Sequence record: MN850616.1
Origin: Escherichia phage buks
DNA length: 40,308 bases
Strand: one strand, 5' to 3'
Part shown: positions 7,216 to 20,170 of the stretch, one piece after another
Layout of the letters: every line of letters starts with the position of its first letter
Position numbering within the stretch: the stretch's first letter is position 1
Notes under the pieces: generated by a model
The model's database searches: none
What the model saw: only the letters and a program-made list of their open reading frames with translations
What the model was told of the DNA's origin: nothing
Translations under genes and position numbers: made by a program

Positions 7216-7632
7216 CTACTTTTCCTGCAATTGACGCAACTGTTCGTGGTGGAATACGACTACATGTTCCGCCAGGCGCTTATATTGGGTGAGAAGAGTC
7301 TCAAGATTTTCCTTAGTGAACTCATCATCGAGACTCCAGCCATTCACCAATTCGAGAGCCAATTGTCGGTTTAGGTCTCCTGCCGCGTCTTCCATTTTTA
7401 AATTGTATTCTGAGAAGTCTTTTTGCTCTTCGCATTTATCCCGAAGCGGTTTTAATTTACCTACCGCCGCTCGGTACGCCAGGGTGAAGGCACGCATAGC
7501 TTTAACCGCGACATCGGCCTCCGGGGAGACAACGTTCAACCATTCTCCTGAATCTGTACCGTCTTTTAAAGGGATCGGCATGCGCGCGCCTTTCTCGGCT
7601 TCGGCTTCGTAGTAAAAATCGCTAAGTTTCAT
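7216..7632 (-). CDS. Tail assembly chaperone (gpG-like)
   Basis: 138 aa acidic protein immediately upstream of the T-like ORF and tape measure gene; ATG 7630-7632; ends ...QLRQLQEK with GGAAAAG just before the stop codon. Confidence 0.55.
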   Translation of the reverse strand: MKLSDFYYEAEAEKGARMPIPLKDGTDSGEWLNVVSPEADVAVKAMRAFTLAYRAAVGKLKPLRDKCEEQKDFSEYNLKMEDAAGDLNRQLALELVNGWSLDDEFTKENLETLLTQYKRLAEHVVVFHHEQLRQLQEK

Positions 7633-9955: not shown

Positions 9956-9982
9956 AAAAAGGCCCCTTTCGGGGCTTTTTTT
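9956..9982 (+). terminator. Rho-independent terminator
   Basis: Stem GGCCCC / GGGGC with TTTC loop followed by a 7-nt T-run, right after the 9724-9954 gene. Confidence 0.7.
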
Positions 9983-10736: not shown

Positions 10737-10764
10737 AACTAAGGCCCCTTTCGGGGCCTTTTTC
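10737..10764. terminator. Bidirectional rho-independent terminator between convergent genes
   Basis: AAGGCCCC-TTTC-GGGGCCTT hairpin flanked by A-run upstream and T-run downstream; sits between the Rha-like gene (+) and the major tail gene (-). Confidence 0.7.
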
Positions 10765-14413: not shown

Positions 14414-14449
14414 GTCTAATCCTTAAAGAGGCCCGAAGGCCGCGTGTAT

Positions 14450-14800
14450 TTAACTTACGGTTACTACTGTGCTATCCGAGATAATGTTGCCATACCCGTC
14501 ATGGGCAACAACTTTATACGTACCGGAATCCGCCGCTGCGGAGTTGGACTTAGTGTAAGTCAAAGCGGTTGCACCAGCGATAGCGTTATTATCCTTATAC
14601 CATTGAACGGTTTTAGGGTCCATGCCGTCGGCGAGTTTCACGGTCAGTGTGATAGCCTGACCAGCGGTTACCGCGGTAGTGTCATTGAGACCGGTAGAGA
14701 AACGCAACGGCATTACGTTTTCCATATCGATCTCAACCTGCCCGTCCTGCGGACTATCATCAGATACACCAACAATACGACGTTTGATTACATCAACCAT
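14450..14800 (-). CDS. Ig-like domain protein (probable capsid decoration/accessory)
   Basis: 116 aa; strong CTGAGGAGGA RBS; sequence ...AGQAITLTVKLADG...VQWYKDNNAI...SGTYKVVAHDGYGN... fits an immunoglobulin-like fold pattern. Confidence 0.55.
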   Translation of the reverse strand: MVDVIKRRIVGVSDDSPQDGQVEIDMENVMPLRFSTGLNDTTAVTAGQAITLTVKLADGMDPKTVQWYKDNNAIAGATALTYTKSNSAAADSGTYKVVAHDGYGNIISDSTVVTVS

Positions 14801-14811
14801 TTTTATCCTCC

Positions 14812-15096
14812 TCAGGATACAGTACCAGCGTTTTTAAGGGCGGTTAGCAGATTAGTAACGGCAGTGCGCAATGAAGTCACATCTGTACGCAACTTATTGT
14901 AGTTGGTAACCAGTGCATCGAACTCTTCTTTCGTAGGAGCACCCGCGGCGGCTGCACCGCTGCCAGCACTAATCGCCGGAGGTGCCGCTACCGTTTCGGA
15001 CTTTTTAACCCCTCCGATTGCCGTTGTGGTTGCGGCGGGAATATCTAGTTCCGCGTTAACCAGGCTGCGGGGCAGCCCTTTACCTGTCTTTGACAT
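14812..15096 (-). CDS. Hypothetical head-associated protein
   Basis: Start re-set to ATG 15094-15096 (MSKTGKGLPRS...) with GGAG RBS; the longer track ORF would run into the capsid terminator hairpin. Confidence 0.45.
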   Translation of the reverse strand: MSKTGKGLPRSLVNAELDIPAATTTAIGGVKKSETVAAPPAISAGSGAAAAGAPTKEEFDALVTNYNKLRTDVTSLRTAVTNLLTALKNAGTVS

Positions 15097-15112
15097 TATG
15101 TAGTCTCCGTAT

Positions 15113-15142
15113 AAATGAAAAGAGGGACCGAAGTCCCTCAAG
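15113..15142 (-). terminator. Rho-independent terminator immediately after the major capsid gene
   Basis: On the minus strand: stem GAGGGAC / GTCCCTC with UUCG loop followed by UUUUCAUUU. Confidence 0.65.
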
Positions 15143-15156
15143 AGTATACCCTACGA

Positions 15157-16206
15157 TTAAGCACCGACGCCAGTTACCAGGAACGCAATCGGCACATGCT
15201 TACGGTCGACTACACGGTTCCAGTTGGTGGCGTTAGCCAGGTCTTGCCAGCTAGCGGAGCGGGCGATAGTCTCGGTGCCGTTGCCGGTGATTACAGCGCT
15301 GGTGAAGCTGTAGCCAAACGGATGCAGCAACCACGTTTTACGCGTCCACAGGGTTTCAACACCGCCACCGTTACCGCGTGACTCTTCGCGCTCGTACGCC
15401 AGCGGAGTGGTCGGGGAACCTTCACCGTAACCAATAGCGCCTCGACCGAAGATGATGGAGATGAACTTGCGCTGTGCCCCCTGGCCTACTACAGTCATGC
15501 TGTCATCAACGATGACGCGATAGCCCTGGTAGGTAGCGAACATGGTGTTGTTCTCGGCATCACGGATGAAGTCGATAAGCTGGGCTTTACGGGCCTGTGC
15601 GTATACGAAGCTGTGCATTGCGATAGCACCGAGAACCTCACCGCCGTTACCCATCAATGCGTCACCCATAGTCTGAGTAGCATCAATGAAAGCGCCAGCG
15701 TCGAAGCCAAGGGTAGCGGAAACGTCAACAACCATGTCGTTCTGCTCGTGATACGCATCAGTAGCGGATACGTTGTCGTTGTACAGGCCGAGTGCAGTTG
15801 CAATAAGGCGACGCTGCGCCTGACGCTGCCAGAAGTTATCCAGACGGGATGCGACGGACTGCAATGGGTTCTGACTGGTCAATTCTACGGTCAGGTCAGC
15901 CTGGCCAAAACCTTCGTTCAGGTAGGCGACGCGGGCCATCATTTCACCGGTCTGGATAGCGCGCGGCGTAGCGATATCCTGATACACATCGTTCGAATAG
16001 TTAGGTTCGATAGAGGTATCAATAGCTTTCCAGAACGGCAAGTTAGCAATGTTTGACGGACCGTTAGCAATCTCAGCAGCATACGGAGTTGGAGTCAAAA
16101 TGCCGGAGTCGAAAAACGCTGTTTTCTCTACCGGGTCTTCGGTCATGTAAGACGCCAGTACAGGTATATTGCCAGTTACGATGTTGCCAATAGTGGTGAT
16201 TGCCAT
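15157..16206 (-). CDS. Major capsid protein
   Basis: 349 aa ORF immediately after the scaffold gene (stop/start 1 nt apart), GAGGAA RBS, followed by a strong terminator hairpin; call by synteny and size. Confidence 0.75.
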   Translation of the reverse strand: MAITTIGNIVTGNIPVLASYMTEDPVEKTAFFDSGILTPTPYAAEIANGPSNIANLPFWKAIDTSIEPNYSNDVYQDIATPRAIQTGEMMARVAYLNEGFGQADLTVELTSQNPLQSVASRLDNFWQRQAQRRLIATALGLYNDNVSATDAYHEQNDMVVDVSATLGFDAGAFIDATQTMGDALMGNGGEVLGAIAMHSFVYAQARKAQLIDFIRDAENNTMFATYQGYRVIVDDSMTVVGQGAQRKFISIIFGRGAIGYGEGSPTTPLAYEREESRGNGGGVETLWTRKTWLLHPFGYSFTSAVITGNGTETIARSASWQDLANATNWNRVVDRKHVPIAFLVTGVGA

Positions 16207-16209
16207 TAT

Positions 16210-16911
16210 TTATTTCCTCAGGGCTTTAAGTTGCCGTTCAAATTCGGCAGGGTTAGATTTATAGAGAGCCAACCGCTCACTTTCACTCATATCTTTAAAC
16301 GCCGGTGCGGCCCCGCCGCCTTTATTCCCGGAAGCCCCGCCACCGGAAGCTGCATTTGCTTTAATCAAATGTGAAAAAGCTTTATGTTCGCGCAGATATT
16401 TGCGGAACTGCTCAGGGTCGGTAGTAACAACATTACCATCCGCACCCATGAATTTAGTCACTACGTCTTCGCCGTCGAACTCGGTCTTAACGAAAGGCGC
16501 CAGGATTTCTACCGCTTCTGGGGTGATAAAATCACCGGCGAAAGAACCTAAAACAGCTTTACGTTCGCTACCAAGAATACGCGCGGCTAAAGACGCGTAA
16601 CGCTCTTCTTTCTCTTTCAGTACAGGTTCATACTGACTACGAATCGTCTTTTCAAATTCGTCCATTTTACCAGCGGCTTTCAACGCTTCCTGGTGGGCGC
16701 GTTGCCGTTCTTCTTCGGCTTCTTTAGCCCGGCGCGCAGCTTCCTTTTTCTCACTAAGTAATGCTTCTTGATTTGCTTTAAGCCCCGCCACTTCTTTCTC
16801 AATCATGGCCTGCACTTCTTCAGCGGTGTACATTTTTGGTGCGTCACCTGCACCCGGTTTATCTTCTACCCCGGCTTCTTCATGAAGCGGGTAACGTAAA
16901 AAACGATTCAT
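16210..16911 (-). CDS. Scaffolding protein
   Basis: Charged, Ala/Glu/Lys-rich helical protein (…EKKEAARRAKEAEEERQRAHQEALKAAGKMDEFEKT…) directly upstream of the capsid gene. Start re-set to ATG 16909-16911 (MNRFLRYPL...); the track start is TTG two codons earlier. Confidence 0.7.
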   Translation of the reverse strand: MNRFLRYPLHEEAGVEDKPGAGDAPKMYTAEEVQAMIEKEVAGLKANQEALLSEKKEAARRAKEAEEERQRAHQEALKAAGKMDEFEKTIRSQYEPVLKEKEERYASLAARILGSERKAVLGSFAGDFITPEAVEILAPFVKTEFDGEDVVTKFMGADGNVVTTDPEQFRKYLREHKAFSHLIKANAASGGGASGNKGGGAAPAFKDMSESERLALYKSNPAEFERQLKALRK

Positions 16912-16995
16912 AGTCAATATGTCCCCTGGACTTTAGGACACCGGGCCACCCGGTGTTTCTGTAACAAGAATAAATTATTCCACTTACTAAGGCAA

Positions 16996-17697: not shown

Positions 17698-17777
17698 ATA
17701 AAAAATAATAAAAGTCTATTTTTGGAATAAAGTATTCCTGAATTTACATTGGTAAGGGATAACTGGAATAATGGTGT

Positions 17778-17806
17778 GTAAAATTAAGGCCCCTTGACGG
17801 GGCCTT
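17778..17806 (-). terminator. Rho-independent terminator after the Ig-like gene
   Basis: Stem AAGGCCCC / GGGGCCTT (17786-17806) followed on the minus strand by AAUUUUAC. Confidence 0.55.
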
Positions 17807-17809
17807 TCG

Positions 17810-18268
17810 TTACTTAGATTCTGAGACCTTAGCCGCTTTACTTACCACCGATATCCCGTCAGCATCTACCGCCCTGACGAAATACTCCCCCGGGTCTTTA
17901 ACAGTTAGTTCCCCTTCAACATAAGGGACGTTGATTACCTCTTTACCATTTTTAAACCATTGCAAATCGTAGGGCGCTTTGCCACCTTTCACGACTACGG
18001 TTAGTTTAGCGGAACCGTCTTTCAATTCTACATCTGCTGGCTGTGTGTCGAAGTACACATCACCTGCTCCGCCCAGATACGGCACTTCGTACAGGATACC
18101 GGCAGGGATTGCTACCAGTCCGGTCTTATCAGCGAACGGCATTTCATCTACCGACTCACCAAGAACAGATTCATCTTTAATGTACACAACACCTTCGCCC
18201 GCGCCGGACACACGGGAGTACTGAACTACACGTCGTGAAGGCACATCTTTAACTTTGAAAAAGCCCAT
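17810..18268 (-). CDS. Ig-like domain protein
   Basis: 152 aa; C-terminal ...KLTVVVKGGKAPYDLQWFKNGKEV...GEYFVRAVDADG... Ig-like pattern; starts 2 nt after the head morphogenesis gene; followed by a terminator. Confidence 0.5.
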   Translation of the reverse strand: MGFFKVKDVPSRRVVQYSRVSGAGEGVVYIKDESVLGESVDEMPFADKTGLVAIPAGILYEVPYLGGAGDVYFDTQPADVELKDGSAKLTVVVKGGKAPYDLQWFKNGKEVINVPYVEGELTVKDPGEYFVRAVDADGISVVSKAAKVSESK

Positions 18269-20141: not shown

Positions 20142-20170
20142 AACTAAGGCCCCGTCATGGGGCCTTTTGT
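20142..20170. terminator. Bidirectional terminator between the KilA-N-like gene (+) and portal gene (-)
   Basis: AAGGCCCC-GTCAT-GGGGCCTT hairpin (20146-20166) with flanking A/T runs. Confidence 0.65.

What the first reader, a model, noticed from the sequence alone, without database searches (positions are those of the whole stretch)
15113..15142. Strong terminator placed directly after the major capsid gene
A GC-rich hairpin with a UUCG-type loop and a U-run follows the capsid stop within about 15 nt, upstream of the next head gene. This is the classic arrangement for raising capsid and scaffold transcript levels relative to downstream genes by partial termination.
Basis: partly seen in the sequence, partly recalled or inferred. 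Interest (0 to 1): 0.25.

Follow-up and report, generated by a model that had tools for sequence, protein, structure and literature searches.

The report
Leaky terminator hairpin after capsid gene
A small, conserved RNA hairpin followed by a run of U sits just after the major capsid gene of this Salmonella phage and most likely stops part of the transcription there, an ordinary phage arrangement; the identical sequence is already listed as a predicted terminator in a close relative.

Summary
The window is Salmonella phage blauehaus (Jerseyvirus), and its late genes are on the minus strand. The major capsid gene (16206..15157) ends in TAA. After 17 nt comes a perfect 7-bp stem with a UUCG loop (15139..15122, -12.0 kcal/mol), then UUUUCAUUUA (15121..15112), GGAG, and the ATG of a head-fiber gene (15096). 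Such a pattern occurs twice in the window against 0.08 expected by chance. All 68 related loci examined keep a 7-bp/4-nt hairpin at this spot. Four of the seven pairs show compensatory changes, and G·U intermediates occur. Most distant capsid homologues also have a GC-rich hairpin right after the gene. A conserved promoter-like site and a 5' hairpin lie upstream of the scaffold gene, so scaffold and capsid look like a bounded cassette, as in T7 (phi10, gene 10, Tphi). Connector and tail genes downstream have no consensus-like promoter, so termination is probably partial. No transcript data exist. The identical element is already listed as predicted terminator T04 of Kagunavirus Golestan. One point remains unexplained: an invariant -10-like hexamer, TATA[A/C]T, lies 3 nt upstream of the stem and has no -35. 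The feature is ordinary and of low interest.

The parts
15157..16206 (-). Major capsid (head) protein gene, 349 aa; stop TAA at 15159..15157
   Evidence: ORF list. phrog_247 major head protein, E 3e-117. Annotated as coat protein in NC_073173.
15151..15153 (-). Second in-frame stop (TAG) two codons after the capsid TAA
   Evidence: Read from the sequence. A TAR codon at the same place in type A and B relatives.
15143..15148 (-). Invariant -10-like hexamer TATACT (TATAAT in most relatives), 3 nt upstream of the stem; role unexplained
   Evidence: Invariant except at position 5 in 29 distinct sequences, while flanking bases vary. No -35 or TGn.
15122..15139 (-). Terminator hairpin: 5' arm 15139..15133, UUCG loop 15132..15129, 3' arm 15128..15122
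   Evidence: -12.0 kcal/mol. Conserved with covariation.
15112..15121 (-). U-rich tail UUUUCAUUUA
   Evidence: Pairwise identity 0.84 across relatives, against 0.49-0.64 for neutral proxies.
15105..15108 (-). Shine-Dalgarno GGAG of the next gene, outside the hairpin
   Evidence: Read from the sequence.
14812..15096 (-). Head fiber protein gene (94 aa), the first gene downstream of the hairpin
   Evidence: phrog_4366, E 3e-45. Annotated as putative head protein.
16210..16911 (-). Head scaffolding protein gene, the first gene of the proposed cassette
   Evidence: phrog_206, E 1e-55. Annotation.
16967..16995 (-). Conserved promoter-like site TTGCCT-N17-TATTCT upstream of the scaffold gene (inferred)
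   Evidence: Both hexamers are invariant and the middle of the spacer varies in all 47 loci where the pattern was found; 17 of the 64 loci searched gave no match. Coordinates. At 8 of 12 matches it falls below the threshold of the consensus scan.
16939..16955 (-). 5'-UTR hairpin CACCGGG-UGG-CCCGGUG downstream of that promoter-like site, with no U-run on this strand
   Evidence: Variants CACCGGG/CCCGGTG, ATCCGGG/CCCGGAT and AGCCGGG/CCCGGCT keep the pairing. Coordinates.
10741..10760 (.). Bidirectional terminator-like hairpin that closes the late head-to-tail operon, after the 389-aa tail protein gene

Best explanation
The element is a conserved factor-independent (intrinsic) transcription terminator that works as a leaky attenuator. 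RNA polymerase reads the late operon on the minus strand and transcribes the scaffold and capsid genes. It then makes a 7-bp GC-rich hairpin with a cUUCGg loop, followed by a U-rich stretch. A fraction of polymerases release there. The released scaffold-capsid mRNA carries a nuclease-resistant 3' hairpin. It probably also carries a 5' hairpin, supplied by a dedicated promoter upstream of the scaffold gene. The polymerases that read through express the lower-copy head-fiber, Hoc-like, connector and tail genes. Shown here: the anatomy, its position and strand, its improbability by chance, its conservation and covariation, and the gene identities. Inferred: that termination happens at all, that it is partial, that the hairpin stabilises the mRNA, and that the upstream promoter-like site is active.
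For: The canonical anatomy sits on the coding strand in a 60-nt gap, with energy -12.0 kcal/mol and a terminator score of about +16. The pattern occurs 2 times against 0.08 expected. A 7-bp/4-nt hairpin was found after the capsid stop in 68 of 68 Guernseyvirinae loci, in 34 distinct versions. Every stem cell is paired, 4 of 7 pairs change on both sides, and G·U intermediates occur in L058, L064 and L069. RNAalifold on an unanchored alignment predicts the same helix as the only consensus structure. The loops are stable tetraloops: UUCG, UACG, UGCG and GAAA. Hairpin and tail are more conserved (0.83, 0.84) than capsid third codon positions (0.64) or the spacer (0.49). Six of seven distant capsid homologues in named phages (30-42% identity, various hosts) also have a GC-rich hairpin just after the gene, five of them with a U-run. 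The downstream genes are head fiber, Hoc-like, adaptor, head closure, Neck1, tail terminator and a tail protein. They are tightly packed and no consensus-like promoter lies on their strand before the operon-end terminator. A conserved promoter-like site and a covarying 5' hairpin lie upstream of the scaffold gene. ARNold predicted the identical sequence as terminator T04 in phage Golestan. The T7 and LUZ100 precedent is cited.
Against: There are no transcript 3'-end or coverage data for this phage or any relative; the one Kagunavirus RNA-seq paper gives no per-gene values. The U-tract is interrupted (UUUUCAUUUA). The folding z-score of the region is unremarkable at -1.4. Some relatives keep the hairpin but have a degraded U-tail, with score below 0 in L064 and L066/L067. 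In the GAAA-loop lineage the stem starts only 6-7 nt after the stop codon, where a terminating ribosome could interfere. The consensus promoter scan would miss promoters as weak as the scaffold one (8 of 12 matches), so internal promoters downstream are not excluded.
Confidence: 0.75

Rival explanations
1. The hairpin is mainly an mRNA stability or processing element. It blocks 3'-to-5' exonucleases at the end of processed scaffold-capsid mRNA, and little or no transcription terminates there.
For: The hairpin is kept in every relative, even where the U-run has decayed (L064, L066/L067). The loops are extra-stable tetraloops. A second covarying hairpin without a U-run sits at the 5' end of the cassette, which suggests selection for a protected mRNA.
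Against: The U-tail is conserved well above neutral proxies in most lineages (0.84 against 0.49-0.64). The four proximal U are invariant or nearly so: 28, 29, 29 and 27 of the 29 distinct type A/B/D sequences. A pure 3' protector does not need them. This reading is not exclusive of termination, because a terminator hairpin also protects the 3' end.
Confidence: 0.12
2. The element is composite. The invariant TATA[A/C]T hexamer is the -10 of an internal promoter that is weak or needs an activator. Its transcripts would begin in or at the hairpin and give the downstream genes a 5'-hairpin-capped mRNA. Alternatively, the hexamer is a sigma70-dependent pause signal that tunes termination.
For: The hexamer is invariant except at its fifth position in 29 distinct sequences, while the adjacent bases vary freely. 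The two positions most critical for sigma70 (A at -11, T at -7) are always kept. The GAAA-loop lineage has CATAAT 5-6 nt from its stem. The scaffold promoter-like site is also followed closely by a hairpin.
Against: No -35 is present (best 3 of 6 at spacings of 16-19 nt) and there is no extended -10 TGn. The predicted start would fall inside the stem and remove 2-3 pairs. The spacing to the stem differs between lineages (3 against 5-6 nt). Neither the consensus scan nor PHIRE in Golestan flags the site. A transcript that begins with a hairpin and a U-run is an unusual design.
Confidence: 0.07
3. The 28-nt block is conserved as a recombination linker between the capsid module and the head-decoration module and has no RNA function.
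For: Homology with several Kagunaviruses stops right after the block (query position 1189). Recombinant combinations of upstream and downstream types occur in L010, L043 and L016. Different genes follow the same block: head fiber in some phages, Hoc-like in RP180 and Golestan.
Against: Selection acts on pairing and not on sequence identity: there are compensatory changes, G·U intermediates and a completely different stem in the GAAA lineage. Unrelated hairpins occupy the same position in distant phages. Serving as a crossover point is better seen as a by-product of conservation.
Confidence: 0.04

Closest known systems
Predicted Rho-independent terminator T04 of Escherichia phage VB_EcoS-Golestan (Kagunavirus), PMC7203180 Supplementary Table S5
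   Same: It has the identical 28-nt sequence GAGGGACTTCGGTCCCTCTTTTCATTTA, in the same position directly after the orthologous capsid gene, in the same subfamily.
   Different: The flanks differ: TATAAT-CGA upstream instead of TATACT-CTT, and a Hoc-like gene follows instead of head fiber. Like this one, it is only a computational prediction, and the paper does not discuss its role.
T7 T-phi terminator after gene 10 (major capsid), and the equivalent in T7-like LUZ100
   Same: A terminator lies immediately after the major capsid gene, preceded by a local promoter, and downstream structural genes are still expressed. For LUZ100 this was seen by long-read transcriptomics (PMC10134795). That T7 phi10 transcripts also start with a 5' stem-loop, and that T-phi is leaky, is established knowledge and was not tested here.
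   Different: T7 and LUZ100 use a phage single-subunit RNA polymerase with its own terminator requirements. This phage encodes no RNA polymerase in the annotated record and must rely on host polymerase. The hairpins share no sequence.
Canonical E. coli / Salmonella intrinsic terminators (d'Aubenton-Carafa type)
   Same: A GC-rich 7-bp stem, a tetraloop of a kind known to be enriched in terminators (UUCG; from prior knowledge), a U-rich tail right after the stem, and a positive discriminant score.
   Different: It lies inside an operon rather than at its end. The U-tract is interrupted after four U, and there is no upstream A-tract. The operon-end hairpins of this phage belong to a different sequence family (GGCCCC-loop-GGGGCC).

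Membership tests
Intrinsic (Rho-independent) terminator | GC-rich stem-loop with a stem of about 5-14 bp and a loop of 3-8 nt | tested here: met
   7 perfect pairs, 5 of them G-C, a UUCG loop, -12.0 kcal/mol.
Intrinsic (Rho-independent) terminator | U-rich tract immediately 3' of the stem | tested here: met
   UUUUCAUUUA, with 7 U in the first 9 nt and a tail score of 3.76, among the highest in the window. The tail is degraded in a few relatives.
Intrinsic (Rho-independent) terminator | Same strand as the transcription unit, in non-coding sequence downstream of a stop codon | tested here: met
   On the minus strand like all flanking late genes, 17 nt after the capsid TAA and 25 nt before the next ATG.
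Intrinsic (Rho-independent) terminator | Structure maintained by selection (covariation) | tested here: met
   Present in 68 of 68 loci. 4 of 7 pairs show changes on both sides, and G·U intermediates occur. Caveat: the alignment was anchored on the hairpin; the alignment was not.
Intrinsic (Rho-independent) terminator | Transcript release / 3' ends at the U-tract in vitro or in vivo | not testable with these tools
   No transcript-end data were found for any Guernseyvirinae phage.
Capsid-gene attenuator of the T7 T-phi type (functional analogy only) | Sits directly after the major capsid gene, with a dedicated promoter upstream of the cassette | tested here: inconclusive
   The position is met. 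A conserved promoter-like TTGCCT-N17-TATTCT and a 5' hairpin lie upstream of the scaffold gene, but their activity is untested.
Capsid-gene attenuator of the T7 T-phi type (functional analogy only) | Termination is partial, so that essential downstream genes are expressed by read-through | not testable with these tools
   This is inferred only: nine tightly packed virion genes downstream have no consensus-like promoter.
Sigma70 promoter (for the TATA[A/C]T hexamer) | A -10 hexamer together with a -35 hexamer at 16-19 bp, or an extended -10 TGn | tested here: not met
   The -10 is consensus-like, but the best -35 match is 3 of 6 and no TGn is present in any lineage.
Rfam RNA families | Match to a curated covariance model | tested here: not met
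   The only hit in 14700-15500 is a chance-level match (RT-19, 15 bits against a gathering score of 78) that does not overlap the hairpin.

The most novel reading that the evidence does not exclude
The invariant -10-like hexamer and the hairpin may form one composite regulatory unit, either of two kinds. In the first, an internal promoter lacking a -35 fires into the hairpin, so the same stem ends and protects the capsid mRNA and also caps the 5' end of a second mRNA for the decoration, connector and tail genes. In the second, the hexamer is a sigma70-dependent pause signal that sets how leaky the terminator is.
Probability: 0.08. Interest if true: 0.45.

Novelty: already known. Interest (0 to 1): 0.13.

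Why it matters
It matters little beyond annotation. The site marks the probable 3' boundary of the scaffold-capsid transcription cassette in Jersey-like and Kaguna-like phages, which are widely used as Salmonella and E. coli biocontrol and therapy candidates. That boundary is useful for engineering, for example when inserting reporter or payload genes at a high-expression or low-expression position. The compact 28-nt element could serve as a small terminator part. The comparative data add one modest point: the hairpin is maintained by compensatory evolution and doubles as a crossover point between head modules. The conserved -10-like hexamer next to it is a small open question that a single TSS/TTS-mapping experiment would settle.

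Tried and rejected
- **Rfam:** a permissive scan of 14700-15500 found nothing relevant.
- **-35 or TGn for the hexamer:** no -35 at 16-19 nt spacing and no extended -10 in 14 representative lineages.
- **MotA box:** a resemblance (TGCTTAA) at the capsid C-terminus was dismissed from reading the sequence. The spacing to the hexamer is 8 nt rather than about 12, and the bases are the Gly-Ala-stop codons.
- **Long-range pairing:** pairing of the hexamer region with sequence after the tail appears in the single-sequence folds but is absent from the consensus fold.
- **A-tract/U-tract extension of the stem:** not possible, from reading the sequence.
- **Antisense ORF:** a plus-strand ORF starts at the ATG inside the tail (15115..15381). 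It was rejected because it has no Shine-Dalgarno sequence and the type B relatives read ATG-TGA there.
- **Readthrough fusion of capsid to head fiber:** the two genes are in frame in this phage, but two stop codons intervene and the frames differ in Kagunavirus.
- **Other copies:** no second copy of the hairpin in the window, even with 3 mismatches.
- **Transcript data:** literature searches found only one Kagunavirus RNA-seq paper, which gives no per-gene values or coverage.
- **GGAATA-N3-TATTCC palindrome:** only marginally enriched, with 6 hits against 1.5 expected and 2 of 100 shuffles reaching 6. Not pursued.
- **Folding energy:** the z-score of the whole intergenic region is not significant at -1.4.

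Full report
**Identity and orientation.** The 1.9 kb around the finding is 100% identical to Salmonella phage blauehaus (Jerseyvirus, Guernseyvirinae; NC_073173/MT074473). The whole window is the reverse complement of that record, read across its arbitrary ends, with 3 mismatches. All late genes around the finding therefore lie on the minus strand.
- The 349-aa ORF at 16206..15157 is the major head protein (phrog_247, E 3e-117).
- It is preceded by the scaffolding gene at 16911..16210 (phrog_206).
- It is followed by a head-fiber gene at 15096..14812 (phrog_4366) and a Hoc-like decoration gene at 14800..14450 (phrog_4069).

**The observation.** Read on the minus strand, the 60-nt gap is TAA-TCG-TAG-GG-TATACT-CTT-GAGGGAC-UUCG-GUCCCUC-UUUUCAUUUA-UAC-GGAG-ACUACAUA-AUG.
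- The stem has 7 perfect pairs, 5 of them G-C. It closes on a cUUCGg tetraloop and spans 15139..15122. The U-rich tail spans 15121..15112.
- The stem begins 17 nt after the stop codon and ends 25 nt before the next ATG. The Shine-Dalgarno sequence is not sequestered.
- The consensus scan lists it among the best terminator-like sites.
- Its energy is -12.0 kcal/mol, and its tail score is among the highest in the window.
- A d'Aubenton-Carafa-type discriminant is about +16. The bidirectional hairpin that closes the operon at 10741-10760 scores +14.5.
- A strict pattern matches twice in the window, here and at 10742, against 0.08 per dinucleotide shuffle.
- The folding z-score of the whole gap is only -1.4, so energy alone would not single it out.
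The strand was not stated, and the distance is 17 nt rather than 15.

**Comparative evidence within the subfamily.** I collected 76 loci from GenBank phages and IMG/VR through the capsid protein. In all 68 Guernseyvirinae loci that include the capsid 3' end, a 7-bp/4-nt hairpin follows the stop codon. There are 34 distinct versions, which fall into four types:

| Type | 5' arm | Loop(s) | 3' arm |
|---|---|---|---|
| A | GAGGGAC | UUCG | GUCCCUC |
| B | GAGGGGC | UACG, UGCG, CUCG, UUCG | GCCCCUC |
| C | AGGGCGC | GAAA | GCGCCCU |
| D | AGGGGAC | UUCG | GUCCCCU |

- Type B differs from type A by a compensatory A-U to G-C change. Type C has a different stem and sits 6-7 nt after the stop codon.
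- G·U intermediates occur in L058, L064 and L069.
- On a hairpin-anchored alignment, every cell is paired and 4 of 7 pairs change on both sides. Sliding the partners by one to three columns lowers pairing to 33-77%.
- Because that alignment was built around the hairpin, I repeated the test on an unanchored MAFFT alignment of whole intergenic regions. RNAalifold predicted exactly this helix as the only consensus structure, again with 4 covarying pairs.
- Mean pairwise identity is 0.83 for the hairpin and 0.84 for the tail. It is 0.64 for capsid third codon positions, 0.49 for the spacer after the stop, and 0.56 for the stretch down to the ATG.

**Distant capsid homologues.**
- In named phages with capsid homologues at 30-42% identity, a GC-rich hairpin starts within about 10-30 nt of the capsid stop in six of seven. 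Five of those have a U-run: Xanthomonas XAJ2, Vibrio R29Z, E. coli FritzHoffmann, Providencia PSTCR7 and Achromobacter ehaak. The Pseudomonas Aurca01 hairpin has none.
- Pseudomonas PMBT14 has no such hairpin.
- Two more distant IMG/VR loci, L071 (58% identity) and L075 (30%), also carry a hairpin after the stop, without a clear U-run.

**Operon logic.** The nine genes downstream of the hairpin are:
- head fiber and the Hoc-like protein;
- a 62-aa protein;
- adaptor Ad1;
- a 201-aa protein;
- head closure Hc1, Neck1 and the tail terminator;
- a 389-aa tail protein.

The first three are separated by gaps of 11 and 36 nt, and the later genes abut or overlap. The operon ends at the bidirectional hairpin at 10741-10760. 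The consensus scan finds no sigma70-like promoter on that strand between 15100 and 10765. These virion genes are essential, so the terminator is probably leaky. The scan's threshold (9 of 12 matches) would miss weak promoters, so this is an inference.

Upstream of the scaffold gene I found a promoter-like site, TTGCCT-N17-TATTCT, at 16995..16967.
- Both hexamers are invariant in all 47 loci where the search pattern was found, and the middle of the spacer varies. The other 17 of the 64 loci searched gave no match, among them all type C and several type B loci.
- It is followed by a hairpin at 16955..16939. That stem covaries (CACCGGG/CCCGGTG, ATCCGGG/CCCGGAT, AGCCGGG/CCCGGCT) and has no U-run on this strand.

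Scaffold and capsid thus look like a cassette bounded by a promoter with a 5' hairpin on one side and a 3' hairpin/terminator on the other. This is the design of T7 phi10, gene 10 and T-phi. [quoted passage not shown]

**Mechanism.** The best-supported reading, at about 0.75, is a leaky intrinsic terminator for host RNA polymerase that also leaves a protected 3' end on the abundant scaffold-capsid mRNA. The main rival, at about 0.12, is a hairpin that mostly stabilises RNA. A few relatives keep the stem but have lost the U-run (score below 0 in L064 and L066/L067). In type C the stem lies within reach of a ribosome terminating at the stop codon. The two roles are not exclusive. Conservation as a recombination linker is real as an effect:
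- homology with several Kagunaviruses ends right after the block;
- recombinant upstream/downstream combinations exist in L010, L043 and L016;
- RP180 and Golestan place a Hoc-like gene directly after the same block.

It cannot explain the compensatory changes, however.

**Unexplained detail.** A -10-like hexamer, TATA[A/C]T (15148..15143), lies exactly 3 nt upstream of the stem in all 29 distinct type A, B and D sequences.
- Only its fifth base varies. The base before it takes all four values, and the three bases after it vary freely.
- Type C has CATAAT overlapping the stop codon.
- No lineage has a -35 (best 3 of 6) or a TGn, so it fails the test for an ordinary sigma70 promoter.
- It could be a weak or activator-dependent internal promoter, a sigma-dependent pause element, or historical residue. 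I rate a composite function at under 0.1.

**Prior knowledge and novelty.**
- The GenBank record annotates only coding sequences.
- The identical sequence GAGGGACTTCGGTCCCTCTTTTCATTTACT is already listed as ARNold-predicted Rho-independent terminator T04 (position 7572, plus strand) of Kagunavirus VB_EcoS-Golestan (PMC7203180, Supplementary Table S5).
- The kind of element and its placement after a capsid gene are textbook.
- No experimental transcript data exist for the group: the K1B4 RNA-seq paper gives no per-gene values.

**Verdict.** The feature is real and conserved and is very probably functional, but it is ordinary and has already been predicted in a relative. Interest is low.

Noticed in passing
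window 15143-15148 (minus strand): An invariant -10-like hexamer, TATA[A/C]T, lies 3 nt upstream of the terminator stem in all type A, B and D relatives, while the flanking bases vary. It has no -35 or TGn, and its role is unexplained.
   Followed up: partly
window 16939-16995 (minus strand): A conserved promoter-like site, TTGCCT-N17-TATTCT, is followed by a covarying hairpin (CACCGGG-UGG-CCCGGUG) in the 5' UTR of the scaffold gene. It suggests a dedicated scaffold-capsid transcription unit with a protected 5' end.
   Followed up: partly
window 17724-17738 and 16967-16981: The palindrome GGAATA-N3-TATTCC occurs with 0 and 1 mismatch in two late-strand intergenic regions. The second copy overlaps the -10 of the scaffold promoter-like site. 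It may be an operator, but enrichment is only marginal (6 hits against 1.5 expected). Golestan's PHIRE motif TAATAGnnTACTATTCA is a different palindrome; a similar sequence, TAATAGAACACTATTAAC, occurs at about 7760 of the window.
   Followed up: partly
window 14430-14441 (minus strand): A tiny GGCC-UUCG-GGCC hairpin (-6.3 kcal/mol) followed by UCUUUAAGG lies in the 36-nt gap after the Hoc-like gene. In Golestan, ARNold called the equivalent site a terminator on the opposite strand (T05).
   Followed up: no
window 15151-15159 (minus strand): Tandem in-frame stops, TAA-TCG-TAG, end the capsid gene. A second TAR codon two codons after the stop is conserved in type A and B relatives.
   Followed up: no
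L010, L043, L016 (intergenic region after the capsid gene): The Jersey-type and Kaguna-type sequences upstream and downstream of the hairpin occur in recombinant combinations. The identical 28-nt hairpin block therefore appears to serve as a crossover point between the capsid and head-decoration modules.
   Followed up: partly
L002 (RP180), L028 (Golestan), L032, L034, L039: These Kagunaviruses lack the head-fiber gene. A Hoc-like gene follows the same hairpin and the AAGAGG Shine-Dalgarno sequence directly.
   Followed up: no
window 9962-9975, 10741-10760, about 17789-17805, 20147-20165: A family of GGCCCC-loop-GGGGCC hairpins, often flanked by A and T runs and so bidirectional, marks operon ends and convergent gene junctions. 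It is a different sequence family from the capsid hairpin.
   Followed up: no
window 17813-18268 (minus strand): The gene annotated as 'putative tail protein' (gp21), upstream of the spanin gene, matches a Hoc-like head decoration family (phrog_3945, E 2e-85). The phage may therefore carry two Ig-like decoration proteins.
   Followed up: no
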